A stretch of 64,000 bases of DNA from Deferribacteres bacterium (GCA_020633675.1 JACKDE010000002.1:624644-688643); one strand, 5' to 3'; shown: positions 1 through 63,765, counted from the first letter of the stretch. Notes: generated from the letters alone by a model not told the origin. A program made the numbers and translations.

Positions 1-143
1 GTAGCCAAATCCGCAGCAAGTTGAATATAAGCCCGACCTGTATATGTACAAACGGGGTAGAAATCACCTGGGCCTTCAAATGTGCAACAACGATTAACGA
101 AAGGCAGGGGCAACTGAGCGAGCGATTGGCTGTCTGTACGATT

Positions 144-662
144 TCAACCGACATCATGTGAGTGATCGAATTTTCTTCTGACCGAAAACAGTCTCAGCGA
201 AGTGAATAATGTCAGCAAGACTGACAAGGCAAAGCAATACAATCCATACTGCAAATCGATGCGGGCATTGATTTGAAATTTGATCGCATAAATGAGAATG
301 CCGACGAAAAGTGCGTCGAGCGCAAAATATTTCAAAAGCCTGGTAGTCAGGATCAATCTTTTTTTGATCTGCTCCAAGCCCGGAAGGTTGGCAGTCCAAA
401 CATGTGCAATTGTTGCCAATTTGGCTACTGGCAAGAGAATGCCAAACCCTAAAATAAATAGAAAGATAAGGTATTGTTTTTCAGAAATTAAATACAACAT
501 GATCGAGTAAAGGGATAGTGTTCTGCTGAAGAAGATGTATTTGTTAGCGGTAAACAGCGGCGCAAAAATCCCGACTAAAAACAATATCAGCGATGCTACA
601 ATGAAAACGCGACTGATTTTGTGCTCTTTCGGGTAGGTGTTTGCAAGAGAAATTTTGTTCAT
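144..662 (-). CDS. Integral membrane protein, possibly PqiA-like (paraquat-inducible protein A family, single repeat)
   Basis: 172-aa ORF with multiple hydrophobic helices. The segment FALDALFVGILIY resembles the PqiA SMLDVF motif. The downstream 1-143 region (same strand) may start an MCE/PqiB-like gene but is too short to call. Confidence 0.4.
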   Translation of the reverse strand: MNKISLANTYPKEHKISRVFIVASLILFLVGIFAPLFTANKYIFFSRTLSLYSIMLYLISEKQYLIFLFILGFGILLPVAKLATIAHVWTANLPGLEQIKKRLILTTRLLKYFALDALFVGILIYAIKFQINARIDLQYGLYCFALSVLLTLFTSLRLFSVRRKFDHSHDVG

Positions 663-892
663 GGTTTAGCAACAGAGTTTTTTTAATGAACAACGCGCGG
701 CTCGACGGGGCTGTGCGGCGAGTGGTAACCGGGCAACTACATATCGCAGCGTTGACTCTACACCTTATCCAAGCCTGCAGAACCGAAAATCGTGAAAATC
801 CGGCTTGAGCCGATGTTAGCTATCTAATGTAACATGGTCGTCTGCGAACATGCCTGATAGATTGTTAATCCAATTTCTGTATGCCTGCTTTT

Positions 893-2050
893 CTATCGAT
901 TGTTTCTATTTGTAGGTAGTACTAACCTTGACATTTTGTTCTTATAACGCACATATTGCATGGTGTGCATTGATTCTGGTGAATATGGATAAAACTGAGA
1001 CATATGTGTTCCTGAAATACCTCTCTCAAACTTAAAATTCATCATTTCGCGTTCAGATTCTGAAATATTCCTTGAGTCATTTTCATAAATGAATTCCAGA
1101 TTAGGATTAATGTTGAATCTAACAACAGTACTATCTTCATAGATATATGGATTTGTTGAAGGATAAAACATCCCAATGCCAAGTTCCCTGCTAAAGGCGA
1201 AAGACTTTCCGTGTATATTGGATAATCTACTTCTTGTTTTTGTACTATCCTTAATAAGATCAAGCCCGTCCAGCCACTTATGCAACTTTGTCGAGTCATT
1301 TGGGCTAATTGCTTTAATGCGGACAAAGTATTTGGCTAAGTAATCTACTTCGCCGTCACGGTTTATAAAATTTCCTTCGGGGACACAGATCCAGCCCAGC
1401 AATGATAAGCGACTTGATGAATTGGAACTCACTAAAGAGTGCCATTTTTTATCCAACTCGTAAAACTGAACCATAGATTCGTGAACATTATCTTGTATTT
1501 TAGCATGTTCAATAGATTTCCATAGCCTTTCATTCATGTGATACAAGTAAGTCAGTGACTGACTATTTGGGTAACGTTTTCTTTTTCTAATTTGATCAGG
1601 AAGCAAAGGCGCAAGTAACTCTCCCCAAATATTCAATTCCGCATTCGACTCTGAATAATCTGCAAGTGCATCGAATACTGCCATTCTCGCATCCACGGTC
1701 GAACTATCTGAGCTTGATAGGAAATGCCATAGCGCTCTGAAGCCTTCTTCTCGCTGGCTAGCCAATTTTTCAGCTGCGGAACCCGCAAGGCCGGGGATAA
1801 CGAGGTTTCGCTGCAATTGAACAGTTGATTCTGACCGCTTTTGAGATATCCAGTTGTTATACGTTATCATAGTTCCTACAAGCAGTCCAATGACGCCAAG
1901 TGATGTTGGTGTGATAAACTTATCTACGATTCTCCGCCATCCAGAGCTCCATTTTAGTTCATTCTCAATCTTTCTGCGTTCCAGAATCTCTTTGTCTTCC
2001 TGAGATTTCGGCTTTTCCCGCTTAGAACTTTTTCTATTTTTCATTTTCAT
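893..2050 (-). CDS. Hypothetical membrane-anchored protein (charged N-terminus, one TM helix, about 320-aa C-terminal domain of unknown family) in an AT-rich islet
   Basis: 385-aa ORF. The start MKMKNRKSS is preceded by an AT-rich promoter-like region. The K/E/R-rich N-terminus is followed by TM helix LGVIGLLVGTMITY. Local GC is clearly lower than the flanks. No recognisable catalytic motif. Confidence 0.6.
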   Translation of the reverse strand: MKMKNRKSSKREKPKSQEDKEILERRKIENELKWSSGWRRIVDKFITPTSLGVIGLLVGTMITYNNWISQKRSESTVQLQRNLVIPGLAGSAAEKLASQREEGFRALWHFLSSSDSSTVDARMAVFDALADYSESNAELNIWGELLAPLLPDQIRKRKRYPNSQSLTYLYHMNERLWKSIEHAKIQDNVHESMVQFYELDKKWHSLVSSNSSSRLSLLGWICVPEGNFINRDGEVDYLAKYFVRIKAISPNDSTKLHKWLDGLDLIKDSTKTRSRLSNIHGKSFAFSRELGIGMFYPSTNPYIYEDSTVVRFNINPNLEFIYENDSRNISESEREMMNFKFERGISGTHMSQFYPYSPESMHTMQYVRYKNKMSRLVLPTNRNNR

Positions 2051-2228
2051 CTATTTTGAGTATCCCAATCAAGTCGCACACTAAATATATATAAACTGAT
2101 CCGGTATAAAAGCTCGGACCTGAAATTATTGCCGAGGTAATACTGTAGTCATGGTTTATGGCAGCGTAAAGTAACTATTAGACTATAGTTTGTTGAAAAT
2201 TGAATTTGTAGCATGGAGTGACATGGAT

Positions 2229-2349
2229 TCCCCCTTCGAGAACCACATTTCCTGTGAACTATGGCAAAAATATTGGCAATTGCGGCAGGAATGTCAAGCA
2301 AAATGAGGCGGAAGCTATTAGGCCGTGCCCAAGGCTGTGAGTATTTCAT
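2229..2349. other. Copy A of a paralogous ~110-nt intergenic element; contains the minus-strand small ORF 2149-2349 (MKYSQPWARPNSFRLILLDIPAAIANIFAI...)
   Basis: Nucleotide similarity to 4942-5062. Shared blocks are cccc(t)ttcgagaa, aaaatattgGcaat/aaaatattgCcaat, gaatgtcaagc and ggcCgtg/ggcgtg. The minus-strand translation shares the peptide motif L-L-x-L-D-I-x-x-x-I-x-N-I-F-A. Confidence 0.35.
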
Positions 2350-2503
2350 TGAAGGGATTTTTATGAAGCCATTGTGATTGAACTTTCATCGTAATCCTTT
2401 GGAAGCAAGGTCTGAGTGTGCTCTGGAATTCTTCAATAGGCGGTTTGATTAATACATTGGCGATTTGTTGTACTTCTTCTGCCAACAAATTCCAAACTAT
2501 AGA

Positions 2504-3889
2504 CTACCTCGCTGCCTCCAAAAGAGCATCACATTTCATTCGCATCTCATTCAGCAGATCCTGAGAATCAGAGTTGGTGGCCAGGTTATATTGTTCGTGG
2601 GGGTCTGTTTGTAAATCATACAACTCTTCAAACATAGGCGTCGATTCAATATAGCGGAGATATTTGTAGCGTTGCGTCACCACGCCTTCTGATTTTGGAA
2701 TGGTTGGATACTCGAACAGGTGTTCATAGAAAAATTCATCCCGCCACGCAGGCGACTTCGCATCGATAAGTGATCGAAGGCTTCTGCCCTGCATTGTTGC
2801 TGGAATATCCGCGCCGGCAAGATCAAGCAAGGTTGGCGCAATATCGATATTCAGCGCCATCTCATCCCGCTTCTGCCCCCTTTTTGACTGCGGCAGACGG
2901 GGATCGTAGACGACCAATGGTACACGAATGGATTCTTCGTGACCGTACCATTTTCCAGCCATGCCGTGTTCACCGAGGTAAAAACCATTGTCACCCATCA
3001 AAATAATGACGGTGTTGTTGGCCTGACCTGATTTTTCCAATTCCTTGCGAATTTGGCCAATCACGACATCCACACCATAGATCAGGCGGTAGTACCCCTT
3101 CACGGATTCCTGGAATTTTTCTGGAGTGGAGAATCGAATATCCCATCGCCTGCGGGCTTCATTGTTGCTGGTAAAAAAATCAGGAAAAGCATCATAGAAA
3201 TAGCTGTCGTCAGCCGTATTGGGTATAGGAATCTCTACGTCATTGTACAGGTCTTTGTAGGCTGGATCGTAGATAAATTGCCTGGGATCGTTGTCCTGTA
3301 CATGTGGTGCCTTAAAGCTGATCGACAAGCAAAAAGGCTGGCCGGCCGTGGAGCTTTGCAAAAATTCGAGGGCGTTTTCACCGCACATTTGGGTGTAATG
3401 CTTATAGTTGCCGTTCTCATCTTTGTGCTCATAAGTGGGTTGGCCGGTCATTGCCTGCCAGTAATCATATTGATCAACTGGTGGATTGCCAACGCCGTAC
3501 TTGCCGATAAAGCCGATACGGTAGCCTGCTTTTTTGAGCAGCAGAGGATAGGTGTTGACATTCGCTGCATCAGGTAGTTCCCCAAATCCTGCCATACCAT
3601 GACGGCGGACATATTGGCCAGTCAGGATACTCGCACGGCTCGGTGCGCAAATCGCGGTGGTCACGAAGGCATTTTGAAAGAGAACACCTTCGTTTGCCAG
3701 CGCATCCATATTCGGCGTTTGAATGATCTGATTTCCCATGCTGCCCATCGCATCCCAGCGCTGATCATCTGTCAGCAAAAAGATGATGTTGGGTTGCTTT
3801 TGTGCTTGCTGACATCCTGCAGAATACAGGCAGGCGATTGCCGCGAAGAACCCCCAAATAAGCTTTTTCATCGTTTCACTTCGATTCAA
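2504..3889 (-). CDS. Sulfatase (arylsulfatase family), secreted lipoprotein
   Basis: Signal peptide with lipobox (YSAGC). Canonical formylglycine motif CAPSRASILTG. LLTDDQRWD metal-binding N-terminus. 461 aa. Confidence 0.9.
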   Translation of the reverse strand: MNRSETMKKLIWGFFAAIACLYSAGCQQAQKQPNIIFLLTDDQRWDAMGSMGNQIIQTPNMDALANEGVLFQNAFVTTAICAPSRASILTGQYVRRHGMAGFGELPDAANVNTYPLLLKKAGYRIGFIGKYGVGNPPVDQYDYWQAMTGQPTYEHKDENGNYKHYTQMCGENALEFLQSSTAGQPFCLSISFKAPHVQDNDPRQFIYDPAYKDLYNDVEIPIPNTADDSYFYDAFPDFFTSNNEARRRWDIRFSTPEKFQESVKGYYRLIYGVDVVIGQIRKELEKSGQANNTVIILMGDNGFYLGEHGMAGKWYGHEESIRVPLVVYDPRLPQSKRGQKRDEMALNIDIAPTLLDLAGADIPATMQGRSLRSLIDAKSPAWRDEFFYEHLFEYPTIPKSEGVVTQRYKYLRYIESTPMFEELYDLQTDPHEQYNLATNSDSQDLLNEMRMKCDALLEAAR

Positions 3890-3910
3890 AGTTTCTCCTC
3901 ATTGCGTTTT

Positions 3911-4705
3911 TTACTCTAACAATTCAAGAGTGACCAGATAGGCACAGTGATCTGAAGCTATGGCATTTTGAATGACCTGAGTTTCAACGACTTTCCATTT
4001 ATCCATTGGATAGAACATCACATAGTCAATTTTAACCTGAGGATTGTCAGATGGAAATGTTGGTTCGGGATCGGCTTTATCATAGGATGCTGCCCAGACT
4101 TCTTCAAGAATGCCAATGGGTGTGCTCTGTGGTTTTGCGTTTAAATCTCCCGCCAGGATAGTCGGATATTTATTCTTAGAGAAGACTTCATTAATCTTCT
4201 TCACCTGAGCGACTCTGTCTTTTTCATCTGGCAAGTGATCCAGGTGCGTTCCAATAAATGCAATCGTGTCTCCCGATGAAAGCACAGTCGTGATTTCGAT
4301 GGCCGCTCTGGGTTCATTCTCTGGCGAATGGGGGAGAGCAACATTTCTGAAGCTTAGAAATGTGTATTTTGAAAGTATCCCTTCACCGTATTCTCCACCG
4401 TCATAATACATCGCTCTGCCAAAGATTGAAGCCATTTTTGCACGCCAGCCAAGTTCGGTTGCCAGGTCATATTTCTTGGCTCGATTGGTTTTATAATCCA
4501 CTTCCTGCAAGGCAACAAAATCCGGCTCGGCATCGATAATGACATCTGCGATCGCGTCCAGATCAAAATCACCTTTTGTCGTTTCGCCATGAAGAATGTT
4601 AAACGATAGGACTTTTATCAATTTGCTATCATGACCAACTTCTTGTGACCAAAGCGAATTGTTGCCGATCAGGAGCATCAAGAGTATTGGTAGAGTCGGT
4701 TTCAT
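3911..4705 (-). CDS. Endonuclease/exonuclease/phosphatase (EEP) family protein, secreted
   Basis: Signal peptide. LSFNILHGETT...DFVALQEVD signature of the EEP fold. Immediately upstream of, and co-oriented with, the sulfatase gene. Confidence 0.8.
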   Translation of the reverse strand: MKPTLPILLMLLIGNNSLWSQEVGHDSKLIKVLSFNILHGETTKGDFDLDAIADVIIDAEPDFVALQEVDYKTNRAKKYDLATELGWRAKMASIFGRAMYYDGGEYGEGILSKYTFLSFRNVALPHSPENEPRAAIEITTVLSSGDTIAFIGTHLDHLPDEKDRVAQVKKINEVFSKNKYPTILAGDLNAKPQSTPIGILEEVWAASYDKADPEPTFPSDNPQVKIDYVMFYPMDKWKVVETQVIQNAIASDHCAYLVTLELLE

Positions 4706-4941
4706 GCATCTATCCTAAAATAATCAACTGGTTTTGTCTTCGGTACCAAGGGATAACATATGATTTGACCGTCTAAAATTGAATCTGCAGGCTGAGTAAA
4801 TTCTTTCGCGATTGGACTGTCAATACTTGCTGATCTCTTTGTATCTGCATATGCAAAAAAATGCCGCGCCATCACTATTTGCGGTAAGTATGAGATCGGT
4901 TTGGTTGCAAAATAGCTTTATTAAAAGGTGCGGGGTAGACT

Positions 4942-5062
4942 GCCCCTTTGAGAATAGTCATATTATAATCAGGGCGAAAATATTGCCAATCGTGGAAAGA
5001 ATGTCAAGCGAAAGAAGCTGAAGGCATTTGCGGCGTGACCTCCCCCCATAGGGCGTGCTCAT
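4942..5062. other. Copy B of the paralogous intergenic element; contains minus-strand 34-aa ORF 4958-5062 (MSTPYGGRSRRKCLQLLSLDILSTIGNIFALIII)
   Basis: See copy A. The small ORF starts 13 residues before the conserved hydrophobic motif, as in copy A, and ends directly after NIFALIII. It lies about 250 nt upstream (same strand) of the EEP gene start. Confidence 0.35.
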
Positions 5063-5096
5063 CGTAAAAAGCACCCCTTTGCACAATTCATCCAGG

Positions 5097-5972
5097 CTAA
5101 AAGATGGTCTCGCGGCCATCTTTGGCAATGCGCCGGAGGCGCGTTTTGTTGCTGCTGGAAAATTCCAGGATCCACAGCGCACCGTCGTCGGCGAGCAAGC
5201 CGCCCGCCGGTGACCACATGCCTTTGCTGCGCACAACAGCGCTCACCTGGCCATCTGCCGTGATTTTTTTCACCACCTGCCCGCGATAGACCGCCACATA
5301 CACCTCGCCAGCTTTGCCCGGCCAGAGCCCCATCAGCGCATGGCGGTCGTGCACGAATGCGAAGGGCAAACTGCGCTCAACCAGTCCATCAGCTACTTTT
5401 GAGACAGCCTTTGCATTTGGTGCTATTTTGAGCAATGCGTCTCCGACAGTGAAATAGGCAGTGCCGTCCGGTAGCGCCATCAGCCAGTGCGGAAAGCCTT
5501 CAAATTGACCATACCCGATGCTGCGAAGCAATTTGCCTTGCTCATCACGCACATCGATTTTTTTGTCAGCGTGACGCAAGATATAGGAATGCAATTCGGC
5601 ATCACGGGCAAACGCGTAGTCAGCCAACTCGGTGGGGTGGCCACTGCGCCAGGGAATCTCATCTTCGATGCGCCCGTCAGGATGCCGCTTCCACACACGG
5701 TGGCGATAGTTGTCACCACTATTGGTCACGTCTTCACCGAACAGCACATCTTCAGCTGACAGCCACAGTTCGTGGGTATGCACATTGGCTACGGCGATGG
5801 TTTTGCTGCCATCCGGCTGAATCATCCAGACATTTTTCAGGTCGCTGTAAAAGATATTGCCGCGACTGTCCATCACCAGGGAAACGGGCGGGTGCGCCAT
5901 TGCTGGTAAATCCCATGCTGCTGTAGTCAAACCAAGCCAGATAAAGATTCGCGAGAAACGTTTTCGATACAT
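5097..5972 (-). CDS. Secreted beta-propeller protein (NHL/SMP-30-like repeats)
   Basis: Signal peptide MYRKRFSRIFIWLGLTTAAWDLPAMA. Repeated hydrophobic/Gly/Asp beta-strand pattern (NIFYSD, GALWILEF) typical of 6-bladed propellers. 291 aa. Confidence 0.5.
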   Translation of the reverse strand: MYRKRFSRIFIWLGLTTAAWDLPAMAHPPVSLVMDSRGNIFYSDLKNVWMIQPDGSKTIAVANVHTHELWLSAEDVLFGEDVTNSGDNYRHRVWKRHPDGRIEDEIPWRSGHPTELADYAFARDAELHSYILRHADKKIDVRDEQGKLLRSIGYGQFEGFPHWLMALPDGTAYFTVGDALLKIAPNAKAVSKVADGLVERSLPFAFVHDRHALMGLWPGKAGEVYVAVYRGQVVKKITADGQVSAVVRSKGMWSPAGGLLADDGALWILEFSSSNKTRLRRIAKDGRETIF

Positions 5973-6168
5973 CTTTGGCCCCTAAAATTGCAATGAACGA
6001 ATGGCAAGGCATACTGGCTTGGCGCTGAAGAGTTGCATGACAGGAGATGAGCGTGCTGAAAACGCTGGCCAAAGTACGGCCACAAACAAAAAGAGCAAGA
6101 CACAGAACGCGTATCTTGCTCTTTGGCGTGAGTTCGACGTAGGCTATTTTCTATTGAAAATAGAATGA

Positions 6169-6204
6169 TCTTCATGGTGAGCGCAATCGAACCATGAAGA
6201 TTTT
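6169..6204. terminator. Bidirectional rho-independent terminator-like hairpin downstream of ferritin
   Basis: tcttcatggt-gagcgcaatcga-accatgaaga forms a 10-bp stem with a 12-nt loop, followed by tttt on the plus strand and a T-rich tract on the minus strand. Confidence 0.5.
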
Positions 6205-6315
6205 GAGCGCGTAGTGCAGGAACTTCTTATCGCCCTCGACTGCATTCGGGCTGAAGAATTCGATGTTTTAATTATATTGAACTCAAGTTCTTAAAAATCA
6301 GCGGAGCCTGCAAAT

Positions 6316-6825
6316 TTATTTGTCTTCGCTTTCGGGTGAGCGGCTGGCCAACTGTTGGTCCAGCACAATCAGGGCGGAGGTGTTGTCACCGATCATCTTA
6401 ACCTGGGCCAAAATATCGGAGGCGGTTTTTTCCTCTTCGACCTGCTCGTTGATGAACCATTGCAGCATGACTTGCGTCGGGTAGTCTTTTTCTTCCACCG
6501 CCAGCGCATACAGTTCGTTGATCATTTGGGAAATGGTTTTTTCGTGCTCGAGTGTTTCTTTGAAAACCTCCACCAGCGAACCATACTGGCTTTCAGGCTG
6601 GGGAATGGCTTTGAGAACCACATGGCCTTCGCGATCCTGAATATAATTGAAGATCTTCATCGCATGGCCGTATTCTTCCTGACTTTGCATGCGCAGCCAA
6701 TGTGCAAAGCCAGCCAAATTTTGCTCATCGCAATAAGCGGACATCGCCAGATAAACGAATGAAGATGAGAATTCATTTTTAATTTGCTCGTTGAGCGCAT
6801 TTTCCATTTTTGTGCTCAGCATCAT
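6316..6825 (-). CDS. Ferritin (non-heme, Ftn-like)
   Basis: Ferritin-like diiron residues (E...EExH pattern: NEQIKNEF, SQEEYGHAMK, NEQVEEE). The start is corrected to the internal MMLSTK, which has a GGAAAG RBS. The upstream part of the 208-aa ORF is not ferritin-like. Confidence 0.85.
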   Translation of the reverse strand: MMLSTKMENALNEQIKNEFSSSFVYLAMSAYCDEQNLAGFAHWLRMQSQEEYGHAMKIFNYIQDREGHVVLKAIPQPESQYGSLVEVFKETLEHEKTISQMINELYALAVEEKDYPTQVMLQWFINEQVEEEKTASDILAQVKMIGDNTSALIVLDQQLASRSPESEDK

Positions 6826-6992
6826 GTTTCCTTTCTCTGATAACAGGTTCGAATATTTTGAGATGCCGGTGTGCTTGCTGCTGGAGAGCGTCGGACATGT
6901 TCGCAAGCATCGACTCCATGATAATACGATAAAAGTGCACATAAAAAAAGGCCATTTCCTGTTTGCGAAATGGCCTTTTGAAAACAGATTTG

Positions 6993-7550
6993 CTAAAACA
7001 GCTTGAGTTTTTTAACCATCTTTTTCAAGCGTCTGCCAAATTTAACCGGTGTGATACGAATGTGGCGCTCTTCACCTTCGCCAAAAGAGTTGGTTTCGAC
7101 ACTCTCCACGGATTTGAGCGCATCGTGGATAAGGAAACGCTCGTAATTGCTCATCGGTGGCAGATCGATTTCGGCGCCAGTGTCCAACGCTTCCTGGGCC
7201 TTTTCCTCGGCATATTTTTTAATTTGGCCGACCGGGAAAACCCACAGCAGGTACTCTTCACCATTGCGGTAGGTTTTGGTCTCGAAGTCAGATTTGTTAT
7301 CAAAGAACTGATGAATGCGTTTGCGTTCGTAGGCATTGAGATCTTCTAAACAGATGGCTTGCGTGGAATGCTCGAGCATTTCCTGTGCATTCCGTATCAG
7401 GCTCTGGATTTTTTGATCATCCTGCCTGTTGCGTCCAAATCTTCCGCCATCCCGATCACGGCGAAATGACCTGCCGCCTCTGCCACCACCTCTGCGGTCG
7501 CGACGCTCGCCTCCGGAACGATCCGATGTTCTGGTATTCTGTTCCCTCAT
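6993..7550 (-). CDS. R3H-domain nucleic-acid-binding protein with Arg/Gly-rich N-terminus
   Basis: C-terminal ERFLIHDALKSVESVETNSFGEGEERHIRITP matches the R3H consensus (R-x3-H ... G ... R-x-I-x-I). N-terminal RGG/RDR-rich disordered segment. Confidence 0.5.
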   Translation of the reverse strand: MREQNTRTSDRSGGERRDRRGGGRGGRSFRRDRDGGRFGRNRQDDQKIQSLIRNAQEMLEHSTQAICLEDLNAYERKRIHQFFDNKSDFETKTYRNGEEYLLWVFPVGQIKKYAEEKAQEALDTGAEIDLPPMSNYERFLIHDALKSVESVETNSFGEGEERHIRITPVKFGRRLKKMVKKLKLF

Positions 7551-13340: not shown

Positions 13341-14706
13341 ACTTTCCCAACCTGCGGTAGAGCGAAGTACGCGTCAATCCAAGTTCGCGCGCCGCCTGGC
13401 TGATGTTGCCGCCGTACTTGCTCATGGCCTTGCGGATCACCATTTTTTCAACATCTTCCAGATTGTAGTTATCGAAAATCATGCTGTCCTCACTGCTCTC
13501 CGGTGTGTTGAAATAGAAATCGCCGGGCTGGATCACCTGACTATCGCTTAAAATCACTGCCCGTTCAATCGAGTGCTGAATTTCGCGCACATTGCCCGGC
13601 CAGTGATATTTCAGCAGCTTTTTCATTCCTGCTGCACTGACGCGCTTGTTGGGACGGTTGTATTTTTTGGAATACATTGCCAGAAAATGGTCGGCCAGCA
13701 GTGGGATATCCTCCTGGCGCTCGCGCAAAGGTGGCAGCGAAATTTCGACGGTATTGATACGGTACAACAAATCCTGGCGGAATTCACGATTGCTCACCAT
13801 TTCCAAAATCGGCAAATTGGTGGCGCAAATTAGCCGGATGTCGATGTCGATCGCTTTGTTCGAGCCGATGCGAGTGATTTTGCGGTTTTGCAGAACAGTC
13901 AACAATTTGGCCTGCAACGGCAGCGGCAGGTTGCCGATCTCGTCCAGAAAAAGGGAGCCGCCCGAAGCGATTTCAAAACGCCCGGTTCGATCTTCCTTTG
14001 CATCTGTAAACGCGCCTTTAACGTGACCGAACAACTCACTTTCGAACAGCGTTTCGGTGAGTGCGCCCATGTCGACGCTGATAAACACCTCATTTGCACG
14101 CTTGGACTGCCGGTGCAGCTCGCGGGCGACCAGCTCTTTGCCGGTGCCGTTCTCACCCAAAATCAACACATTGGCATCGGTTTTCGCCACCTTGCTGATG
14201 GTGTCGAAGACTTTTTGCATCGCCGGGCACACACCGATAAAATCGGAAAAGGGCTGGTCGAGATCGGCGCTCAATGTTTTCTGTTTCGAGCGCAAACTGG
14301 CGGCTTCAATGCGTGACTGCCGCAGCCGCATTGCGGCAAAAATCGTCGCTAACAGCTTCTGGTTTTCCCACGGTTTCAGCACAAAATCGACCGCGCCTTC
14401 TTTGATGGCGCGCACGGCCATTTCAACATCACCATAGGCGGTAATCAACACCACCACCGCTGATGGATCGATATCGAGAATTTTTTCCAGCCACAGAAAG
14501 CCTTCGTAGCCGCTGCTGACATCGCGGGTGAAATTCATATCCAGCAAAATGACATCGTAGCTTTCGTTTTTGAGCAGCGTTGAAATCATCTCGGGATTGG
14601 TTTCTGTATCGATTCGCTCGAGATGCTGTTTGAGAAAGAGCTTCGCGGCTTGCAGCACATCGATGTCGTCATCGATAAAAAGAACTTTGCCGACTTTGGT
14701 ACTCAT
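13330..14706 (-). CDS. Sigma-54-dependent response regulator (REC, AAA+, Fis-type HTH; NtrC family)
   Basis: VLFIDDD receiver. Walker A GENGTGKE. GAFTDA (GAFTGA-like) sigma-54 contact motif. C-terminal HTH. The start is moved to MSTKVGKV, which has an AGGA RBS. Confidence 0.9.
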   Translation of the reverse strand: MSTKVGKVLFIDDDIDVLQAAKLFLKQHLERIDTETNPEMISTLLKNESYDVILLDMNFTRDVSSGYEGFLWLEKILDIDPSAVVVLITAYGDVEMAVRAIKEGAVDFVLKPWENQKLLATIFAAMRLRQSRIEAASLRSKQKTLSADLDQPFSDFIGVCPAMQKVFDTISKVAKTDANVLILGENGTGKELVARELHRQSKRANEVFISVDMGALTETLFESELFGHVKGAFTDAKEDRTGRFEIASGGSLFLDEIGNLPLPLQAKLLTVLQNRKITRIGSNKAIDIDIRLICATNLPILEMVSNREFRQDLLYRINTVEISLPPLRERQEDIPLLADHFLAMYSKKYNRPNKRVSAAGMKKLLKYHWPGNVREIQHSIERAVILSDSQVIQPGDFYFNTPESSEDSMIFDNYNLEDVEKMVIRKAMSKYGGNISQAARELGLTRTSLYRRLGKYGL

Positions 14707-17959: not shown

Positions 17960-19348
17960 CTACGCCTGATGCGAAGAATCCATTTCCTTGCTGTCTTTGG
18001 GCTGGATGTCATATTCTTTCAACCTGCGGTACAGTGTGGTTTTGGAAAGGTCGAGAATTTTGCAGGCTTTTTTCTGGCTCCCATTGGTCTCGCGCAGCAC
18101 TTTGAGAATGTAATGCTTTTCAACTTCTGCCAGCGTTGCCGGGCGATCCTGTACCGGCGGCAAATAATCAAGACTCTGCAACAGGCGCGGTGGCAAATGC
18201 ACCGTGTCGACTTCGGCACTGCTGGACAGGGCAACACCGTGCTCGACAGCATTCATCAGCTCGCGCACGTTGCCTGGCCAGCGATAGCTGGTCAGGGTAT
18301 GCAGGGCAGCCTGGGAGAAGTGCAAATCAGACTTGCCCGATTTTTCGGCAAAGGTGCGCAGGAAGTGCTGTGCGAGCAACGAAATGTCATCATCCCGATC
18401 ACGTAGTGGCGGCAAATGCAACGGGATCACGGCAACCCGGTAAAAGAGATCCTCCCGAAACTCACCGCTGGCCATCATTTTGTGCAAATCTTTGTTGGTG
18501 GCAGCGATGATGCGTACAGACACACGCCGGAGTTCATTGTCTCCAACCCGGCGGATTTCGCCATTCTGGATGAAACGTAACAGTTTGACTTGCAAAGTCG
18601 GGCTCATTTCTGCAATTTCATCCAGAAAAAGTGTTCCGCCATCTGCTTCTTCGACCAGGCCGCGTTTGCTCGAAATTGCGCCGGTAAATGCCCCCTTCAC
18701 ATGTCCAAACAATTCGCTTTCCAACAGTTGCTCGGGCAACCCGCCACAATTAACCGGCACAAACGGTTTTTCCGCGTAGTGGCTGTAGTGATGGATCATG
18801 CCCGCGATCAGTTCCTTGCCTGTGCCGCTTTCTCCGGTAATCAGTACGCTGCTGTCAGTGCCGGATACCGCCAGGGCTTTCTTGATGATTTGTTGCATCA
18901 CCTGATTGACCGTGATAATATTTTTTACGCCGAACTGATCGCGCATGCTGCGTTCGAGATCGCGGATCCGTTTGCGCAAGGCATTGCGTTCCATGGCTTT
19001 CGCAACGGTTTTCGTGAGCGCCTCATCCTGCATGGGCTTGGTCAGGTATTCATAGGCGCCGCTGCGAATCGCTTCCACGGCCGTCTCGACAGCGCCGAAT
19101 GCCGTCATCATGATGACCTCGGTGTCAGGCAAAACGCTTTTGGCGTGCTTAAGCACATCCATGCCGTTGCCATCCTGCATCACGAGATCGCTGATCACCA
19201 CATCAAATATCTCGCGGTTGATTTTGCGTAGCGCATCCTTGCTACTCTGGGCTTCCTGGACCTCGTAGCCCTGCTTTTTGAGTGTAAGCACGAGCGTTCT
19301 GCGCACAGCGCGGTCATCGTCTACAACCAGAATTTGAGCCATATTCAC
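17960..19348 (-). CDS. Sigma-54-dependent response regulator (NtrC family)
   Basis: ILVVDDD receiver. GESGTGKE Walker A. GAFTGA motif present. C-terminal HTH. Confidence 0.9.
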   Translation of the reverse strand: MNMAQILVVDDDRAVRRTLVLTLKKQGYEVQEAQSSKDALRKINREIFDVVISDLVMQDGNGMDVLKHAKSVLPDTEVIMMTAFGAVETAVEAIRSGAYEYLTKPMQDEALTKTVAKAMERNALRKRIRDLERSMRDQFGVKNIITVNQVMQQIIKKALAVSGTDSSVLITGESGTGKELIAGMIHHYSHYAEKPFVPVNCGGLPEQLLESELFGHVKGAFTGAISSKRGLVEEADGGTLFLDEIAEMSPTLQVKLLRFIQNGEIRRVGDNELRRVSVRIIAATNKDLHKMMASGEFREDLFYRVAVIPLHLPPLRDRDDDISLLAQHFLRTFAEKSGKSDLHFSQAALHTLTSYRWPGNVRELMNAVEHGVALSSSAEVDTVHLPPRLLQSLDYLPPVQDRPATLAEVEKHYILKVLRETNGSQKKACKILDLSKTTLYRRLKEYDIQPKDSKEMDSSHQA

Positions 19349-26406: not shown

Positions 26407-27937
26407 CTGCGTGATCCCGATAGGTAATATTCAATCGTTCCATTTTTCGCTGCAAGCCAAGCCTGCTAAGACCAAGGCGGCGCGCCACCTCGCTTTTGTT
26501 GCCGCCCGCGTCTTCTAACGCCTTTTTGATCATTCGCGTTTCCAGTCGATCCACGGCTTCCCGCAGGTCTGCCGGTTCATCATCGGTTTCTGCCTCGGTT
26601 GTGTTGCTTGCGAAGAAGTGGCTGGAAAGGTGCTCAGGCCGGATCACATCGCCATCCTCGGCCAGGGTCACCAACCTTTCAACCTCATTTTCGAGTTCGC
26701 GAATGTTCCCGGGCCAACTGTATTTTTCAAAAACGTGCAGCGTTTCCGGCGCGAAACTGATATCCCGCCTGCTGATTTTCTGCTGGATTTTTTCGATAAA
26801 ATGATGCGAGAGAATCGCAATGTCTTCACGCCGTTGTCGCAATGCCGGCAATCGCAACTCCAGAACGCTCAGGCGATAGTATAAATCCTCCCTGAACCGT
26901 CCGGCTTTGATTTCGGCTTTCAAATCTTTGTTGGTGGCGGCCACTACCCGCACGTTGACACGGATTTCGCGCGTGCTGCCAACCCGCCGCAGGGTTTGCT
27001 CCTGCAAGGTGCGCAATAGCTTTGCCTGCGAGTTCAATGGCATATCACCGACTTCATCGATGAAAAGCGTGCCTGTGTCGGCTTGCTCGAAATAGCCGAT
27101 GTGCTGACTGACGCCAGTGGCGGTACCTGCTTCGATGCCAAAAAACTCCGATTCGACCAGGTTCTCAGGAATCGCTGTGCAATTGATCGCGACAAACGGA
27201 TTGTTGGCGCGCAGGCTGGCGTAGTGGATGGCGCGAGCAGCCAACTCTTTTCCCGTACCGGTCTCACCTACGATCAGCACGCTGGCATCGCTGCGGCCAA
27301 AGCTTTGAATGTTGCCGAGAATGGTCTGTAGTGCCCGGCTCGATCCGATGATTTTTTTGCTGGCATCTTCCTGCCGGACTTGTTGGCGCAGGGTCAGATT
27401 TTCGGCTGTCAGCTTTTCTTTTGCCGTGCTCAGTTCATCGTAGAGATTGATGTTTTCAAGCGCGCTGCCGGCATAGCTGGCGACGGCGTGCAACAGGCGC
27501 TCGTCATCGCGGCTGTAAGGCTCGATGAGGATCTTTTTGCCAAAAAAGAAGCCGCCGACGATTTGGTCGCGCACAATCACATGCTCCCACAGAGAGAAGG
27601 ACAGATCGTCCTGAGAGCGCTTTTCGGTGAGTTCGGTGAGAATTTCCTGTTGACGCCGGGCGGTAGCCTGACTGAATTCATTTCCAAGGTGCTGTTCAAG
27701 TTCTGCGCCCTGGCTTTCGGACAAGCCGCGCATTGCCGTGCAACGCCAGGAACCATTTTCATGCGCCAGCGCCAGTGCATTGCGCGCACCAAAAGTCCCT
27801 GCGATGGTTGCCAGAATTTGCGCATAGACTTCCTGCTGCTTGCGGGATCGGCTGATTGCCTGTGCGATTTCGAGCAGCGTTTTGAGTTGAAAAACCTGAC
27901 GTTCCAACTCCCAAATTGTTTTATCCTGTTCGCTCAT
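26384..27937 (-). CDS. Sigma-54-dependent transcriptional activator with N-terminal GAF domain (no receiver)
   Basis: GAF-like N-terminus. Walker A GETGTGKE. GIEAGTATG as a degenerate GAFTGA. C-terminal HTH (EVARRLGLSRLGLQRKM). Confidence 0.85.
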   Translation of the reverse strand: MSEQDKTIWELERQVFQLKTLLEIAQAISRSRKQQEVYAQILATIAGTFGARNALALAHENGSWRCTAMRGLSESQGAELEQHLGNEFSQATARRQQEILTELTEKRSQDDLSFSLWEHVIVRDQIVGGFFFGKKILIEPYSRDDERLLHAVASYAGSALENINLYDELSTAKEKLTAENLTLRQQVRQEDASKKIIGSSRALQTILGNIQSFGRSDASVLIVGETGTGKELAARAIHYASLRANNPFVAINCTAIPENLVESEFFGIEAGTATGVSQHIGYFEQADTGTLFIDEVGDMPLNSQAKLLRTLQEQTLRRVGSTREIRVNVRVVAATNKDLKAEIKAGRFREDLYYRLSVLELRLPALRQRREDIAILSHHFIEKIQQKISRRDISFAPETLHVFEKYSWPGNIRELENEVERLVTLAEDGDVIRPEHLSSHFFASNTTEAETDDEPADLREAVDRLETRMIKKALEDAGGNKSEVARRLGLSRLGLQRKMERLNITYRDHADDFANEA

Positions 27938-28241: not shown

Positions 28242-28461
28242 TTTATCGCTCCTATTCCTAACAAACATCAAATATAAAAATAGTCCTATTAATAGGCTCA
28301 AAAAACGAAGGCGATTATACTAATCGACGAACTCAATGTCAAGTTTATTTTTTGTTGCGTTAGCTTCAAACTTCGATAACATTGTCGATTGTACCAAGTC
28401 AATGTTGCTTTTGCAAAAGTGAATCTTTACCTTTGCTGTTGGATTGAAAATCGGAGTCGTT

Positions 28462-29406
28462 ATGAATGCGGAATGCCCGGGGGTAGGAGAAAGCACTGCC
28501 TTTCAGGAAATTGTTCGACAGGCCACCATCTTTGCGCGGGTCAACCGACCATTGCTGATTCGTGGCGAACGAGGTACAGGCAAAGAGCTCGTTGCCCGCT
28601 TTATCCATTTGAAAAGCAGTCGAATCGAACAAAACTATGTAACGGTTAATTGTGCGGCATTTCAAGAAGAGCTATTTTTGTCCGATATGTTTGGACATGA
28701 AAAGGGTGCATTTACGGGTGCGGTGCAGAGTAAACCGGGAAAGTTGGAACTCGCGCATTGCGGCACCCTGTTTCTTGATGAAATCGCCAACATGACACGC
28801 ACCGCCCAGGAAAAGTTGCTGCGCGTGATCGAATATCAAAAATTCGAACGCATCGGTGGAACTGAATCGCTGCAAGTGGATGTCCGAATCATCGCGGCTA
28901 CAAATGCGCCGCTCGAAGAAATGATGCAAAATGGCGAATTCCTTCCTGATTTATATGACCGTTTGTGCTTTGCGGAGTTGACCTTGCCACCGCTCCGCAA
29001 GCGCCGCGAAGATATTCCAATGCTGATCGATCATATCGTCCAGCAATTGCATGCTGAAATTCCTGATTTGGAACGTAAGACCTTCACCCAATCTGCTGTC
29101 AAAGAGATGCAAGCGTACCACTGGCCCGGGAACATCCGCCAGCTTAAAAATGTGGTTGAGCGTCTCTATATCTTCGACGAAGACGGCGTCATTCATGCAT
29201 CGGAATTGCCGCTTGAAATTACGGCTGTTGAACCGCTGGGTAAAACCTTCCACGAACGTGTCACAGCATTTGAAAAGACACTGCTGACGAATGCACTCAA
29301 AGATTGTCAGGGCAACCAGCGTGCTGCCGCGCAAGTGCTTGGTATGTCCTACGACCAGTTCCGACATTACTTCAAAAAATATAAACTTGGGGAGTTGTTG
29401 GCGTAA
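28462..29406 (+). CDS. pspF: PspF-like sigma-54 activator (AAA+ and HTH only, no receiver)
   Basis: PLLIRGERGTGKE Walker A. Sigma-54 interaction domain. C-terminal HTH. About 315 aa, like PspF. ATG at 28462 with a GGAG RBS. Divergent from the wHTH gene and upstream of the pspA-like operon. Confidence 0.7.
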   Translation: MNAECPGVGESTAFQEIVRQATIFARVNRPLLIRGERGTGKELVARFIHLKSSRIEQNYVTVNCAAFQEELFLSDMFGHEKGAFTGAVQSKPGKLELAHCGTLFLDEIANMTRTAQEKLLRVIEYQKFERIGGTESLQVDVRIIAATNAPLEEMMQNGEFLPDLYDRLCFAELTLPPLRKRREDIPMLIDHIVQQLHAEIPDLERKTFTQSAVKEMQAYHWPGNIRQLKNVVERLYIFDEDGVIHASELPLEITAVEPLGKTFHERVTAFEKTLLTNALKDCQGNQRAAAQVLGMSYDQFRHYFKKYKLGELLA

Positions 29407-47283: not shown

Positions 47284-47535
47284 CTAAATCGCACCTGCCT
47301 GATACGATTTGCCGAGCGGTTTGAAGGTCGATGTCTCTTGACGTTGTAATTTGGCTTCGATCTCTTCAAATTTTTTGATCAATTCGGGTGTGTACAATCT
47401 TTCGCCACAGTGCTGGCAAATGCCAACTTTTGCCTCCACGAAGGCTGTGTTAACGCCGCCAGAAAGTACTTCGGTTACCTGCTTCTCGACAATCTCTCCG
47501 CCGCAGCTTGGGCATTTTTCAAGAAATTTCGTCAT
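47284..47535 (-). CDS. YgiT-type zinc-ribbon protein
   Basis: CPSCGG ... CQHCGE four-Cys ribbon (MqsA N-domain-like). 83 aa. Confidence 0.55.
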   Translation of the reverse strand: MTKFLEKCPSCGGEIVEKQVTEVLSGGVNTAFVEAKVGICQHCGERLYTPELIKKFEEIEAKLQRQETSTFKPLGKSYQAGAI

Positions 47536-47704
47536 CGGAAACCACCCCTGCTCGCTTCATTTAATGGGCAAGAAACGATGCGCTTGCAGTCACATTTCAC
47601 TTCAACGGCAAGCGTCCCTCCGCAGGCAAGGTCAAAATCGAAAATCAGCTTCGAAAAGTCAAGCAGAATTTTGCTTGCATCAAGCTGCCCACGTCTCGTT
47701 TGCA

Positions 47705-47733
47705 TTGACAATGTGCAGAATATCTGCTATGCT
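47705..47733 (+). promoter_or_regulatory. Sigma-70-like promoter for the S9 peptidase gene
   Basis: TTGACA-17 nt-TATGCT. Confidence 0.4.
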
Positions 47734-47899
47734 GTTTCGTTGGCGAAAATGGTGGACAAGGTATGCGGGTTGAGCACTGCATTTGCAAGAGATTTGGCAT
47801 TTTTCTACGCTCAACACGGACGCTAGAAATTTTCAAGATATCAAGCGATTGGCCAATGAAAAGGCCGCGTATTTTCCAATCCAAATAAGAGAGGGTGTC

Positions 47900-49939: not shown

Positions 49940-50228
49940 TAAGAAAGCAAATCGTTTATTTTAGCCACGAATTTTCACAAATGTACACGAATTATTCTAA
50001 TCGATTCTTGTTCATGAGCATTTATGGGATTCGTGGCTAACTATTTATTTCTATTCAAAAACTTAGACGAAAATAAAGGCGAGCACTGGAATGTCTCGCC
50101 GATGCTGGTTTCGAAGGTGGAATCGAAATTTGCAAACAAGGCGGGGAATATCATCGATATTGAAAAGTGGAAAGAAATGTCCGCTCCGAGCAGACTTTGT
50201 CTTTTGGTCAATTGTTTTAGTTTACATT

Positions 50229-50465
50229 ATGAAAAAATCCCACCCTAAAGCACAGGGAAATCCGGACGAGATCGTTGCTGTAGCTCACTTCGACAACGAG
50301 CTGTCGGCGGAGATCGCACTTACCATTTTGGAGGCTCAGCGCATCGAAGCCTCGCTGGTGCGTGATGATCCGGCAGGCATGGGCCTGCACCGCGGCGCGC
50401 GCATCATGGTTTTCGTCCGCGACGCTGAAAAAGCTCGCACCGTGTTGCAGGCTGAGCATGATTGA
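50229..50465 (+). CDS. Small DUF2007-like protein
   Basis: 78 aa (MKKSHPKAQGNPDEIVAVAHFDNELSAEIALTILEAQ...). The upstream part of the ORF-track call was discarded. The stop overlaps the AEC transporter start by 8 nt. Confidence 0.45.
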   Translation: MKKSHPKAQGNPDEIVAVAHFDNELSAEIALTILEAQRIEASLVRDDPAGMGLHRGARIMVFVRDAEKARTVLQAEHD

Positions 50466-57784: not shown

Positions 57785-57965
57785 TGTATCATCTCCTTCT
57801 ATTGCAAATTGTTTTTTTGCGAAATGTTTATTTGAACTTATTCAATATGTATGCCAATATTTTTGTTTTGTTTTAAAGTATTGAATTTAATGAAATTGTA
57901 GTGAAAGCAAATTTTGCTGGATCATTATTGGCTCGACCAAATGGTCGGCTTTTCGACCTGTTCGT

Positions 57966-58000
57966 CGCAAAAAAAAGTGGGAGCCTTTTCAGACTCCCAC
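57966..58000 (-). terminator. Rho-independent terminator after the TSP3-repeat gene
   Basis: gtgggag-cctttt-cag-actcccac stem preceded on the plus strand by a8, which is a T8 run on the minus strand. Confidence 0.55.
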
Positions 58001-58039
58001 TTTCATGAAGCACCGCAGTCAAATGATCATCTTCTGAAC

Positions 58040-63538: not shown

Positions 63539-63765
63539 CTGAAATAGCTACATTCCTACAGAGTGCGAGCGACAATTTCCGCTTTGCCCATATATTAGCG
63601 CATCCATTCTGTGGGGGAATTTTGCTTGACTTTGCGCACCTGTGTGTGCATTTTGAGGGTGTTTTCACTCAGCAAATGCGTTGTTGTCGCGTTTGTGTTT
63701 TAAGCGTCGAACCATCTCCTGCGCGCCACACCATTATGAATGCCATTTTTGAGTATCATACCACA

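What the first reader, a model, noticed from the sequence alone, without database searches (positions are those of the whole stretch)
2229..5062. Two paralogous ~110-nt intergenic elements, possibly encoding a conserved small hydrophobic peptide
Regions 2229-2349 and 4942-5062 align at the nucleotide level in the same orientation. Shared blocks are cccc(t)ttcgagaa, aaaatattgG/Ccaat, gaatgtcaagc and ggc(c)gtg. The core TTGGCAA in copy A is replaced by its reverse complement TTGCCAA in copy B. Read on the minus strand, both contain short ORFs beginning with ATG 13-14 codons before a shared motif: A has ...FRLILLDIPAAIANIFAI, B has ...CLQLLSLDILSTIGNIFALIII. Several differences are synonymous (ttt/ttc, ctc/ctt). 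Each copy lies 100-250 nt upstream, same strand, of a larger gene. These are the 385-aa islet protein and the EEP/sulfatase pair. Candidate explanations are leader peptides or upstream ORFs, type-I-toxin-like small membrane peptides, a structured cis-regulatory RNA, or remnants of a duplicated gene fragment.
Basis: seen in the sequence. Interest (0 to 1): 0.6.

Follow-up and report, generated by a model that had tools for sequence, protein, structure and literature searches.

The report
Two duplicated sigma-70-type promoter regions
Two ~110-base stretches 2.7 kb apart are truly related copies of an ordinary-looking bacterial promoter region, each in front of a gene group (one inside a strain-variable gene islet), and nothing supports a hidden peptide or a structured RNA.

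Summary
Regions 2229-2349 (A) and 4942-5062 (B) are by far the most similar pair of intergenic sequences in the window: local alignment score 54, against 19.8±2.1 for shuffles and 33 for the next-best real pair.

On the gene-sense (minus) strand the conserved core is GCTTGACATTC..CC.C.ATTGSCAATATTTTYGCC. This is a perfect TTGACA −35 hexamer, a 17-nt spacer and an AATATT −10 hexamer. Both copies point at the downstream genes. The same (T)TTTGCTTGAC −35 context recurs in other intergenic regions of the window.

Similarity continues into the spacer (12/17) and the 50 nt upstream (24/50). So the two are probably paralogous promoter regions, not just two hits to one consensus.

Copy A lies inside a 3.3-kb islet that some strains of the same species lack.

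The peptide idea fails:
- Mismatches fall 8/6/8 over the three codon positions.
- Only 2 of 15 changed codons are synonymous.
- The ORF ends differ between copies.
- The 66-aa ORF has no homologue among 1.84 billion proteins.

The RNA idea fails too: no Rfam hit, folding z-scores of −0.5 to +1.8, and no shared fold.

No third copy was found in ~84 kb of this genome or in public collections. This is ordinary and of low interest.

The parts
2229..2349 (-). Element A: promoter-region copy upstream of the 385-aa islet gene
   Evidence: Aligned to B. Identical in all islet-bearing strains fetched: L001, L004, L024.
4942..5062 (-). Element B: promoter-region copy upstream of the EEP-sulfatase gene pair
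   Evidence: Aligned to A. 100% identical over 180 nt in six strain-level loci, L001-L006.
2263..2299 (-). A core, 37 nt: GCTTGACATTCCTGCCGCAATTGCCAATATTTTTGCC
   Evidence: 0 chance matches expected in the window.
4973..5009 (-). B core, 37 nt: GCTTGACATTCTTTCCACGATTGGCAATATTTTCGCC
2292..2297 (-). A −35 hexamer TTGACA
   Evidence: TTGACA-17-AATATT, 10 of 12 matches.
2269..2274 (-). A −10 hexamer AATATT
5002..5007 (-). B −35 hexamer TTGACA (promoter P1, shared with A)
4979..4984 (-). B −10 hexamer AATATT (P1)
4962..4989 (-). B-only overlapping promoter-like site P2: TTGGCA-16-TATAAT (11 of 12)
   Evidence: The aligned sequence in A is TTGCCA-16-TTCACA, which has no −10.
2272..2280 (-). A 9-bp dyad ATTG-C-CAAT overlapping the −10; possible operator (inferred)
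4982..4990 (-). B 9-bp dyad ATTG-G-CAAT overlapping the −10; possible operator (inferred)
2231..2242 (-). A downstream box TTCTCGAAGGGG, about +27 to +38 of a P1 transcript; role unknown
   Evidence: only the two copies match in the window; 13 of 100 shuffles reach 2 matches.
4943..4954 (-). B downstream box TTCTCAAAGGGG; role unknown
893..2050 (-). 385-aa orphan gene, first gene of the islet, downstream of A
   Evidence: no Pfam hit, and only one distant homologue (36% identity).
2504..4705 (-). EEP-family phosphatase/nuclease gene (3911-4705) plus sulfatase gene (2504-3889), downstream of B
1..2502 (.). Window part of the 3297-nt strain-variable islet (L001:12204-15500); it contains element A
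   Evidence: Strains L002/L003 have 93 nt here instead, between the sulfatase stop codon and ThuA.

Best explanation
A and B are two related copies of a sigma-70-type (housekeeping-sigma) promoter region on the minus strand.

**What each copy contains.** Each has a perfect −35 TTGACA preceded by a T-rich/GC extension (TTTYGC), a 17-nt spacer, and a −10 AATATT. Each points at the genes downstream. B points at the EEP-sulfatase pair, and A at the 385-aa first gene of a 3.3-kb strain-variable islet.

**Why they are probably paralogues.** The similarity continues through the spacer and about 50 nt upstream of the −35. So the two most likely descend from one sequence by a short local duplication or copying of about 70-110 nt. 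They are not two independent hits to a consensus.

**Inferred, not shown.**
- RNA polymerase starts about 7 nt after AATATT, near 2262 in A and 4972 in B. This would give 5' leaders of about 210 nt (A) and 265 nt (B).
- The shared non-hexamer parts are the dyad ATTG-S-CAAT overlapping the −10, the upstream GG.CACG.C block, and the +27 box TTCTCRAAGGGG. If they serve as sites for a common regulator, the islet gene and the EEP-sulfatase operon would be switched together.

**The apparent peptide.** The 'hydrophobic peptide' is a translation artefact of the promoter core.
For: **Shown**
1. Both copies carry TTGACA-17-AATATT on the gene-sense strand, 10 of 12 matches.
2. All 12 hexamer positions are identical between the copies, while the surrounding 68-nt block is 72% identical. 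From those figures, 0.72^12 ≈ 0.02.
3. The extended −35 context GCTTGAC occurs 9 times in the window. Five of these lie in the ~10.6% of sequence that is intergenic (P=0.0012).
4. Four of those five sit upstream of, and point at, a gene: 2299−, 5009−, 47664− (small Zn-ribbon ORF) and 63624+. A perfect TTGACA-17-TATAAT with the same CTTGACATT context lies at 28342−.
5. Similarity beyond the hexamers is significant: spacer 12/17 (P=1.4e-4) and upstream 50 nt 24/50 (P=6e-4). Other promoter-like pairs share 1-10 of 17 and 4-21 of 50.
6. Every gene from 144 to 23945 is on the minus strand, so only a minus-strand promoter makes sense here.
7. Copy A is inside the islet, which sits in L001:12204-15500; L002/L003 have 93 nt in its place.

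**Rival readings tested and found wanting:** coding, RNA structure, mobile repeat.
Against: - No transcription data exist, so the start sites are inferred.
- The −10 AATATT is only 4/6 to TATAAT. Promoter-like matches at this level are not enriched over shuffles in this region: 17 found against 12.6±3.6 expected.
- B has a better overlapping site that A lacks (TTGGCA-16-TATAAT, 11/12). B also has a third TTGACA 118 nt upstream of the EEP start. So P1 need not be B's main promoter.
- The implied leaders are unusually long (about 210-265 nt) and unexplained.
- With only two copies and no orthologous loci in other species, selection on the hexamers rests on a P≈0.02 argument. Duplication cannot be separated from convergence on a shared regulator's sites.
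- The strain-level loci are uninformative. A whole ~1.5-kb stretch around B is free of SNPs, coding sequence included.
Confidence: 0.6

Rival explanations
1. The elements encode a conserved small hydrophobic peptide: a leader peptide, a uORF or a type-I-toxin-like membrane peptide.
For: Both copies have an ATG-initiated minus-strand ORF in the same frame across the core. The shared residues are hydrophobic: LDI...NIFA.
Against: - Mismatches fall 8/6/8 over codon positions. Only 2 of 15 changed codons are synonymous, and a different frame scores 4 of 14.
- The ORF lengths and C-termini differ (66 aa against 34 aa).
- Read directly from the sequence: there is no Shine-Dalgarno sequence before ATG 2349, and only a poorly spaced GGGG 11 nt before ATG 5062.
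- The ORFs start upstream of, and run through, the promoter core. They could only be translated from read-through transcripts.
- They were not called as genes in any locus.
- Neither ORF has a Pfam hit, and the 66-aa ORF has 0 homologues in 1.84 billion representative proteins.
- No intrinsic terminator or attenuator hairpin follows either ORF.
Confidence: 0.04
2. The elements are a structured cis-regulatory RNA (5'-UTR element or riboswitch) or a pair of small RNA genes.
For: Both lie in long 5' regions (179-237 nt to the start codon). The shared +27 box TTCTCRAAGGGG would be transcribed from P1.
Against: - No Rfam match at gathering threshold across the window, nor at E≤1 across 1900-5300.
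- MFE z-scores of both strands and of the full leaders lie between −0.51 and +1.84, no better than shuffles.
- The two copies fold differently. The consensus folds are only −5.0 and −9.3 kcal/mol for 150 nt, with scattered long-range pairs.
- The best-conserved part (−35 to −10) would lie upstream of the transcript start.
- No minus-strand terminator lies between the elements and the genes.
Confidence: 0.08
3. The similarity is a neutral relic of a short segmental duplication, or of the recombination that built the islet. It has no function of its own; the real promoters lie elsewhere.
For: - Only two copies exist, 2.7 kb apart, and one is in a strain-variable islet.
- B has other and better promoter-like sites.
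- Promoter-like matches are common by chance here.
Against: - Conservation peaks exactly on the two hexamers (12/12) and decays on both sides. This pattern is unexpected for neutral decay (about P 0.02).
- The orientation and position fit the downstream genes.
- The −35 context matches other gene-proximal sites in the window.
Confidence: 0.15
4. The two are not paralogues. They are independent promoters that look alike because they bind the same sigma factor and the same transcription factor (regulon-type convergence).
For: - A second pair of look-alike promoters exists at 47632-47670(−) and 63618-63656(+), with 10/17 spacer identity.
- So promoter pairs with similar spacers recur in this genome.
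- The dyad ATTG-S-CAAT is conserved while its centre base differs between the copies.
Against: - The similarity runs over about 110 nt, including 24/50 upstream. That is longer than typical operator-plus-promoter constraints.
- The two copies are adjacent in the genome, which favours local copying.
- No further sites with the dyad-plus-promoter arrangement occur in ~84 kb.
Confidence: 0.1
5. The elements belong to a dispersed repeat family or are mobile-element ends (MITE/REP-like, integron attC-like cassette boundary).
For: Each copy precedes a block of lower-GC, possibly acquired genes. The EEP protein has 70-80% identical homologues named as Bacteroidota, in contexts not shared with this window. 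The islet is strain-variable.
Against: - Element A has no inverted repeats, and B has no terminal ones.
- The profile search found no third full-length copy in ~84 kb of this genome.
- The core pattern gave no exact match in 185,579 species genomes or in IMG/VR. JGI metagenomes gave only 4 matches with no flank similarity.
- The islet has no match in the plasmid or phage collections.
- The islet boundaries (sulfatase stop codon and the ThuA ribosome-binding site) do not coincide with the elements.
Confidence: 0.03

Closest known systems
Sigma-70 (RpoD) −35/−10 promoters, E. coli consensus TTGACA-N17-TATAAT (established knowledge)
   Same: Perfect −35 hexamer and optimal 17-nt spacer. The −10 has A at position 2 and T at position 6. 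The sites are intergenic, upstream of genes and co-oriented with them.
   Different: The −10 is weak (AATATT, 4/6). The promoter sits 210-265 nt from the start codon. There is a lineage-typical extension TTTYGC immediately 5' of the −35. No transcription start has been mapped.
Duplicated or copied regulatory regions that put paralogous or newly acquired genes under one regulation ('promoter capture' or regulatory rewiring of acquired DNA; general concept, own knowledge)
   Same: Two copies lie 2.7 kb apart, and one heads a strain-variable islet whose genes are otherwise orphans.
   Different: Neither the direction of copying nor co-regulation has been shown. The downstream genes are unrelated to each other.
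Type I toxin-antitoxin small hydrophobic peptides (Hok, Ldr, TisB, Ibs families; own knowledge)
   Same: Short ORFs (34 and 66 aa) with a hydrophobic stretch in an intergenic region, present in more than one copy.
   Different: There is no codon-periodic conservation, no conserved ORF ends, no homologues and no usable ribosome-binding site. There is no sign of an antisense RNA gene or a stable mRNA fold.
Leader-peptide attenuators or uORF-controlled operons (trp/his-type, erm-type; own knowledge)
   Same: A short ORF upstream of, and co-oriented with, an operon.
   Different: No terminator/antiterminator hairpins follow the ORFs. The ORFs overlap the promoter rather than following it.
REP/MITE-type intergenic repeats
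   Same: Short (~110 nt) non-coding intergenic repeats.
   Different: Only two copies were found. There are no terminal inverted repeats and no stable hairpin.

Membership tests
Sigma-70-type promoter | −35 hexamer close to TTGACA | tested here: met
   6/6 in both copies.
Sigma-70-type promoter | −10 hexamer close to TATAAT, with A at position 2 and T at position 6 | tested here: met
   AATATT, 4/6, with A2 and T6 present in both copies. This is a weak match.
Sigma-70-type promoter | Spacer of 16-18 nt | tested here: met
   17 nt in both copies.
Sigma-70-type promoter | Located upstream of a gene and oriented towards it | tested here: met
   A lies 219 nt (from the −10) upstream of the 385-aa gene. 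B lies 274 nt upstream of the EEP gene. All are on the minus strand.
Sigma-70-type promoter | Transcription actually starts 5-9 nt downstream of the −10, and activity depends on the hexamers | not testable with these tools
   This needs 5'-end mapping or reporter fusions.
Paralogous (duplicated) element | Similarity beyond what a shared functional consensus gives | tested here: met
   Spacer 12/17 and upstream 24/50 are identical, against 1-10 and 4-21 for other promoter-like pairs. SW score 54, against 33 for the next-best intergenic pair.
Small protein gene (type I toxin or leader peptide) | Substitutions biased to synonymous/third codon positions; ORF boundaries conserved | tested here: not met
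   Mismatches 8/6/8 by codon position; 2 of 15 changed codons synonymous; ORFs of 66 aa and 34 aa with different ends.
Small protein gene (type I toxin or leader peptide) | Homologues or family membership | tested here: not met
   Neither ORF has a Pfam hit. The 66-aa ORF has 0 hits in 1.84 billion proteins. Neither ORF was called in any locus.
Leader-peptide attenuator | Terminator/antiterminator hairpins between the ORF and the operon | tested here: not met
   No minus-strand terminator-like site in 2051-2262 or 4706-4972. The leaders fold no better than shuffles.
Structured RNA (Rfam family or new riboswitch/sRNA) | Match to a covariance model | tested here: not met
   0 matches at gathering threshold and 0 at E≤1.
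Structured RNA (Rfam family or new riboswitch/sRNA) | Unusually stable structure shared between copies | tested here: not met
   z-scores −0.51 to +1.84. Consensus folds of −5.0 and −9.3 kcal/mol.
Structured RNA (Rfam family or new riboswitch/sRNA) | Compensatory base-pair covariation | tested here: inconclusive
   Only two sequences exist, and no diverged homologues were found.
MITE/REP-type repeat | Terminal inverted repeats or a stable palindromic hairpin | tested here: not met
   No inverted repeat in A, and none at the ends of B.
MITE/REP-type repeat | Many copies per genome | tested here: inconclusive
   No third copy in ~84 kb (window, L022, L024). The rest of the genome could not be scanned.
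Sigma-54 promoter (TGGCAC-N5-TTGC) | GG and GC dinucleotides separated by 10 nt | tested here: not met
   Read directly from the sequence. The upstream blocks GGGCACGGCCTAATAGC (A) and GGTCACGCCGCAAATGC (B) place GG and GC 13 nt apart. B also lacks GGCAC.

The most novel reading that the evidence does not exclude
The ~110-nt module is a promoter plus binding sites for an unknown regulator: the ATTG-S-CAAT dyad over the −10, the upstream GG.CACG.C block, and the +27 TTCTCRAAGGGG box. It was copied from the EEP-sulfatase operon to the head of a newly gained 3.3-kb islet. This would wire orphan islet genes, and possibly the downstream ThuA/SulP genes cut off by the insertion, into the same (perhaps sulfur- or phosphate-scavenging) regulon. 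That would be a caught-in-the-act case of regulatory capture in an uncultured lineage. A less likely variant is that P1 of B drives an unannotated small RNA.
Probability: 0.15. Interest if true: 0.35.

Novelty: new member of a known kind. Interest (0 to 1): 0.12.

Why it matters
It matters little beyond this genome. It gives a first view of what promoters look like in an uncultured lineage that NCBI labels 'Deferribacteres bacterium': TTTYGC-TTGACA-N17-nATnTT. It is also a small example of a strain-variable islet headed by a copy of its neighbour's promoter region. As a method point, conserved promoter cores translate into hydrophobic-looking 'peptides' (CTTGACATT = LDI, AATATTTT = NIF). Short ORFs over conserved intergenic blocks should therefore be checked for promoter hexamers first.

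Tried and rejected
**Further copies**
- Exact-pattern scans for CTTGACATT-N9-ATTGSCAATATT: none in GTDB species genomes, none in IMG/VR. JGI metagenomes gave 4 matches with no flank similarity, i.e. chance.
- An nhmmer profile of A+B against the window plus ~20 kb of extra flank gave no third copy. The best other hit had E=0.46.

**Orthologous loci for covariation or codon analysis**
- EEP homologues of 76-80% identity sit in unrelated contexts.
- BLAST found no similarity to A or B in any fetched locus outside this species.
- The neighbouring 291-aa gene has no homologue above 59% identity and no synteny.
- The only homologue of the 385-aa gene (36% identity, L018) has an unrelated upstream region.

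**Strain-level SNPs.** These are uninformative, because a 1.5-kb stretch around B is SNP-free, coding sequence included.

**Coding.** Pfam on both ORFs, and HMMER on the 66-aa ORF against 1.84 billion proteins, gave nothing. Small ORFs downstream of the promoter (M-W-F-S-K-G in A, M-T-I-L-K-G in B) cross the shared TTCTCRAAGGGG box in different frames, read directly from the sequence.

**RNA.** Rfam, single-sequence folds and alignment folds gave nothing.

**Mobile element.** No inverted repeats in A and no terminal ones in B, no tRNA genes in the window, and no plasmid or phage match to the islet. PADLOC gave nothing on the three islet proteins.

**Other binding sites.** The sigma-54 promoter reading of the upstream GGGCAC block was rejected on spacing. 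DnaA, Fur, CRP, PhoB and IHF boxes were checked by eye only, and none fits.
Full report
**Observation**

The window was read from 1 to 7000.

A MAFFT alignment of the two regions on the gene-sense (minus) strand shows a strongly conserved centre with weaker flanks. The repeat finder reports the pair as family D8, 68 nt at 72% identity. A 37-nt core, GCTTGACATTCNNNCCNCNATTGSCAATATTTTYGCC, matches only these two places, with zero chance matches expected.

The similarity is far beyond chance:
- The Smith-Waterman score of the two complete intergenic regions (2051-2503 and 4706-5096) is 54. In 150 dinucleotide-preserving shuffles it is 19.8±2.1, with a maximum of 27. In the opposite orientation it is 18.
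- Among 600 pairwise comparisons of 25 intergenic regions of the window, this pair ranks first. The next score is 33; the mean is 17.9 and the sd 3.7.

The real unit is therefore a ~70-nt well-conserved centre with decaying flanks.

**What the conserved centre is**

All genes from 144 to 23945 are on the minus strand. On that strand both copies read TTGACA, then 17 nt, then AATATT. The consensus scan lists both as sigma-70-type sites with 10 of 12 matches.

All 12 hexamer positions are identical between the copies.

The same extended −35 context recurs elsewhere in the window:
- GCTTGAC occurs 9 times, and 5 of these lie in the ~10.6% of the window that is intergenic (binomial P=0.0012).
- Four of those five lie upstream of, and point towards, a gene. 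They are the two copies, 47664(−) in front of a small Zn-ribbon ORF, and 63624(+) in front of the gene starting at 63766.
- CTTGACATT followed by a perfect TATAAT at 17 nt is found at 28342(−).
- A one-mismatch variant lies at 43380(−), upstream of the 622-aa gene.

So the core of A and B looks like this organism's ordinary promoter.

**More than two hits to a consensus**

I anchored eleven promoter-like sites on their −35 hexamer and counted ungapped identities.
- A and B share 12 of 17 spacer positions. Other pairs share 1-10.
- A and B share 24 of 50 positions upstream of the −35. Other pairs share 4-21.
- The binomial tails are 1.4e-4 and 6e-4 respectively.
- Downstream of the −10 the similarity is weak (20/51, P=0.025), apart from the box TTCTCRAAGGGG about 27-38 nt into a putative transcript. 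That box is found only in these two places.

I therefore take A and B to be paralogous promoter regions. With two sequences, convergence on a common regulator's sites cannot be excluded.

The TTGGCAA/TTGCCAA 'reverse-complement swap' is simply a change of the unpaired centre base of a 9-bp dyad, ATTG-S-CAAT, that overlaps the −10. A 4+4 dyad is not rare by chance, so its role as an operator is only a suggestion.

**Genomic context**

The exact EEP protein is encoded on 19 public contigs.
- Loci L001, L004, L024 and L025 have the window's gene order: ferritin, 267/291-aa beta-propeller-like protein, [B], EEP, sulfatase, [A], 385-aa orphan, PqiA-like 172 aa, 168-aa orphan, ThuA, SulP.
- Loci L002 and L003 go straight from sulfatase to ThuA.
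- BLAST of L001 against L002 gives 99.0% identity up to L001:12203, just past the sulfatase stop codon. It resumes at L001:15501, 10 nt before the ThuA start, at 94.7%. Between these points L001 has 3297 nt and L002 has 93 nt.

Element A (L001:12358-12476) therefore lies about 150 nt inside a strain-variable islet. Strain SNPs pile up in the last 140 nt of the sulfatase gene, which suggests a recombination boundary.

The 385-aa protein is an orphan. There is one identical NCBI entry ('MAG: Deferribacteres bacterium', H6695_07775, on a 1.13-Mb contig) and one 36% homologue. It has no Pfam or PADLOC hit. The islet has no match in the plasmid or phage collections.

B heads the EEP-sulfatase pair. 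EEP homologues of 70-80% identity are common, and the few that carry a source name are Bacteroidota. Those whose contigs were fetched sit in unrelated contexts.

**Peptide hypothesis**

- In the 66-nt ungapped in-frame block, the 22 mismatches fall 8/6/8 over codon positions.
- Only 2 of 15 changed codons are synonymous, and one of the other frames has 4 of 14.
- The A ORF continues to 66 aa, while the B ORF stops at 34 aa.
- Neither ORF was called as a gene in any locus.
- Neither ORF hits Pfam. The 66-aa ORF has no homologue among 1.84 billion representative proteins.
- The ORFs begin upstream of the promoter and run through it.
- Small ORFs downstream of the promoter cross the shared TTCTCRAAGGGG box in different frames in A and B (read directly).

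I consider this hypothesis refuted as far as sequence analysis can go.

**RNA hypothesis**

- Rfam gives nothing at gathering thresholds for the whole window, and nothing at E≤1 for 1900-5300.
- Six 136-150-nt segments (both strands of each element, and the first 136 nt of each putative transcript) and the two full leaders fold with z-scores from −0.51 to +1.84. That is no better than shuffles, and the two copies give different structures.
- RNAalifold consensus structures are −5.0 and −9.3 kcal/mol for 150 nt, with a few scattered long-range pairs.
- No intrinsic terminator lies between either element and its gene.
- The best-conserved part would not be transcribed from P1 at all.

**Repeat or mobile-element hypothesis**

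- Element A has no inverted repeats, and B has none at its ends.
- There are no tRNA genes in the window.
- An nhmmer profile finds no third copy in the window plus ~20 kb of extra flank from L022 and L024. The best other hit has E=0.46 and is a promoter core at 43386-43335.
- The core pattern has no match in 185,579 species genomes or in IMG/VR. Its four matches in JGI metagenomes share nothing beyond the pattern.
- The rest of the source genome could not be scanned.

**Caveats on the promoter reading**

- The −10 is weak. Promoter-like matches at this stringency are not enriched over shuffles in the first 8 kb: 17 found against 12.6±3.6 expected.
- B carries an overlapping, better site (TTGGCA-16-TATAAT, 4989-4962, 11/12) that A lacks. 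B also has another TTGACA at 4823.
- The implied leaders are long.
- No orthologous locus exists for comparison.
- The strain-level loci are SNP-free over 1.5 kb around B, so they carry no information.

**Verdict**

These are a real pair of related elements, most likely two copies of an ordinary sigma-70-type promoter region. One copy heads a strain-variable islet. Co-regulation by a shared factor is plausible but unshown. This is a new instance of a known kind and of low interest.

Noticed in passing
window 1-2502, continuing beyond the window start (L001:12204-15500): A 3297-nt strain-variable islet carries a 385-aa orphan with an N-terminal TM segment, a PqiA-like 172-aa protein and a 168-aa orphan. 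It is replaced by 93 nt in strains L002/L003. Flank identity drops from 99.0% to 94.7% across it, and SNPs cluster in the last 140 nt of the sulfatase gene.
   Followed up: partly
window 47632-47670 (−) and 63618-63656 (+): This is a second pair of look-alike promoter-like sites: AATTYTGCTTGACTTT..N..ATTTTGA, with 10/17 spacer identity. One is upstream of a small Zn-ribbon ORF (about 47536-47285, minus strand), which a spurious plus-strand ORF (47351-47773) hides. The other is upstream of the gene starting at 63766.
   Followed up: partly
window 4962-4989 (−) and 4795-4823 (−): Element B has extra promoter-like sites that A does not share: TTGGCA-16-TATAAT (11 of 12), and TTGACA-17-TTTACT 118 nt upstream of the EEP start codon.
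   Followed up: no
window 3911-4705 (−): The EEP-family protein has many 70-80% identical homologues. The few that carry a source name are Bacteroidota (Cyclobacteriaceae, Aegicerativicinus, Bacteroidales), and the contigs fetched show unrelated gene contexts. By contrast, the neighbouring 291-aa gene has no homologue above 59% identity. This suggests horizontal acquisition of the EEP gene.
   Followed up: partly
L001:8522 (between the ferritin and 267-aa genes; window about 6184): There is a 26-nt insertion/deletion polymorphism among strains (L002, L003 and L006 against L001).
   Followed up: no
window 58146-58717 (+): Four diverged ~110-125-nt direct repeats (65-70% identity) lie inside the 289-aa ORF 57914-58783, so the protein has internal repeats.
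   Followed up: no
window 13583-14169, 18261-18847, 26697-27280, 51817-52403, plus 28553-28723: There are at least five paralogous sigma-54 activator (AAA+) genes in 64 kb. They account for most of the long dispersed repeats in the window.
   Followed up: no
window 50101-50124 (+): ATGCTGGTTTCGAAGGTGGAATC resembles the A-specific sequence ATGTGGTTCTCGAAGGGGGAATC around the downstream box (22/24 with gaps). It lies in the intergenic region upstream of gene 50362-51396. It may be chance.
   Followed up: no
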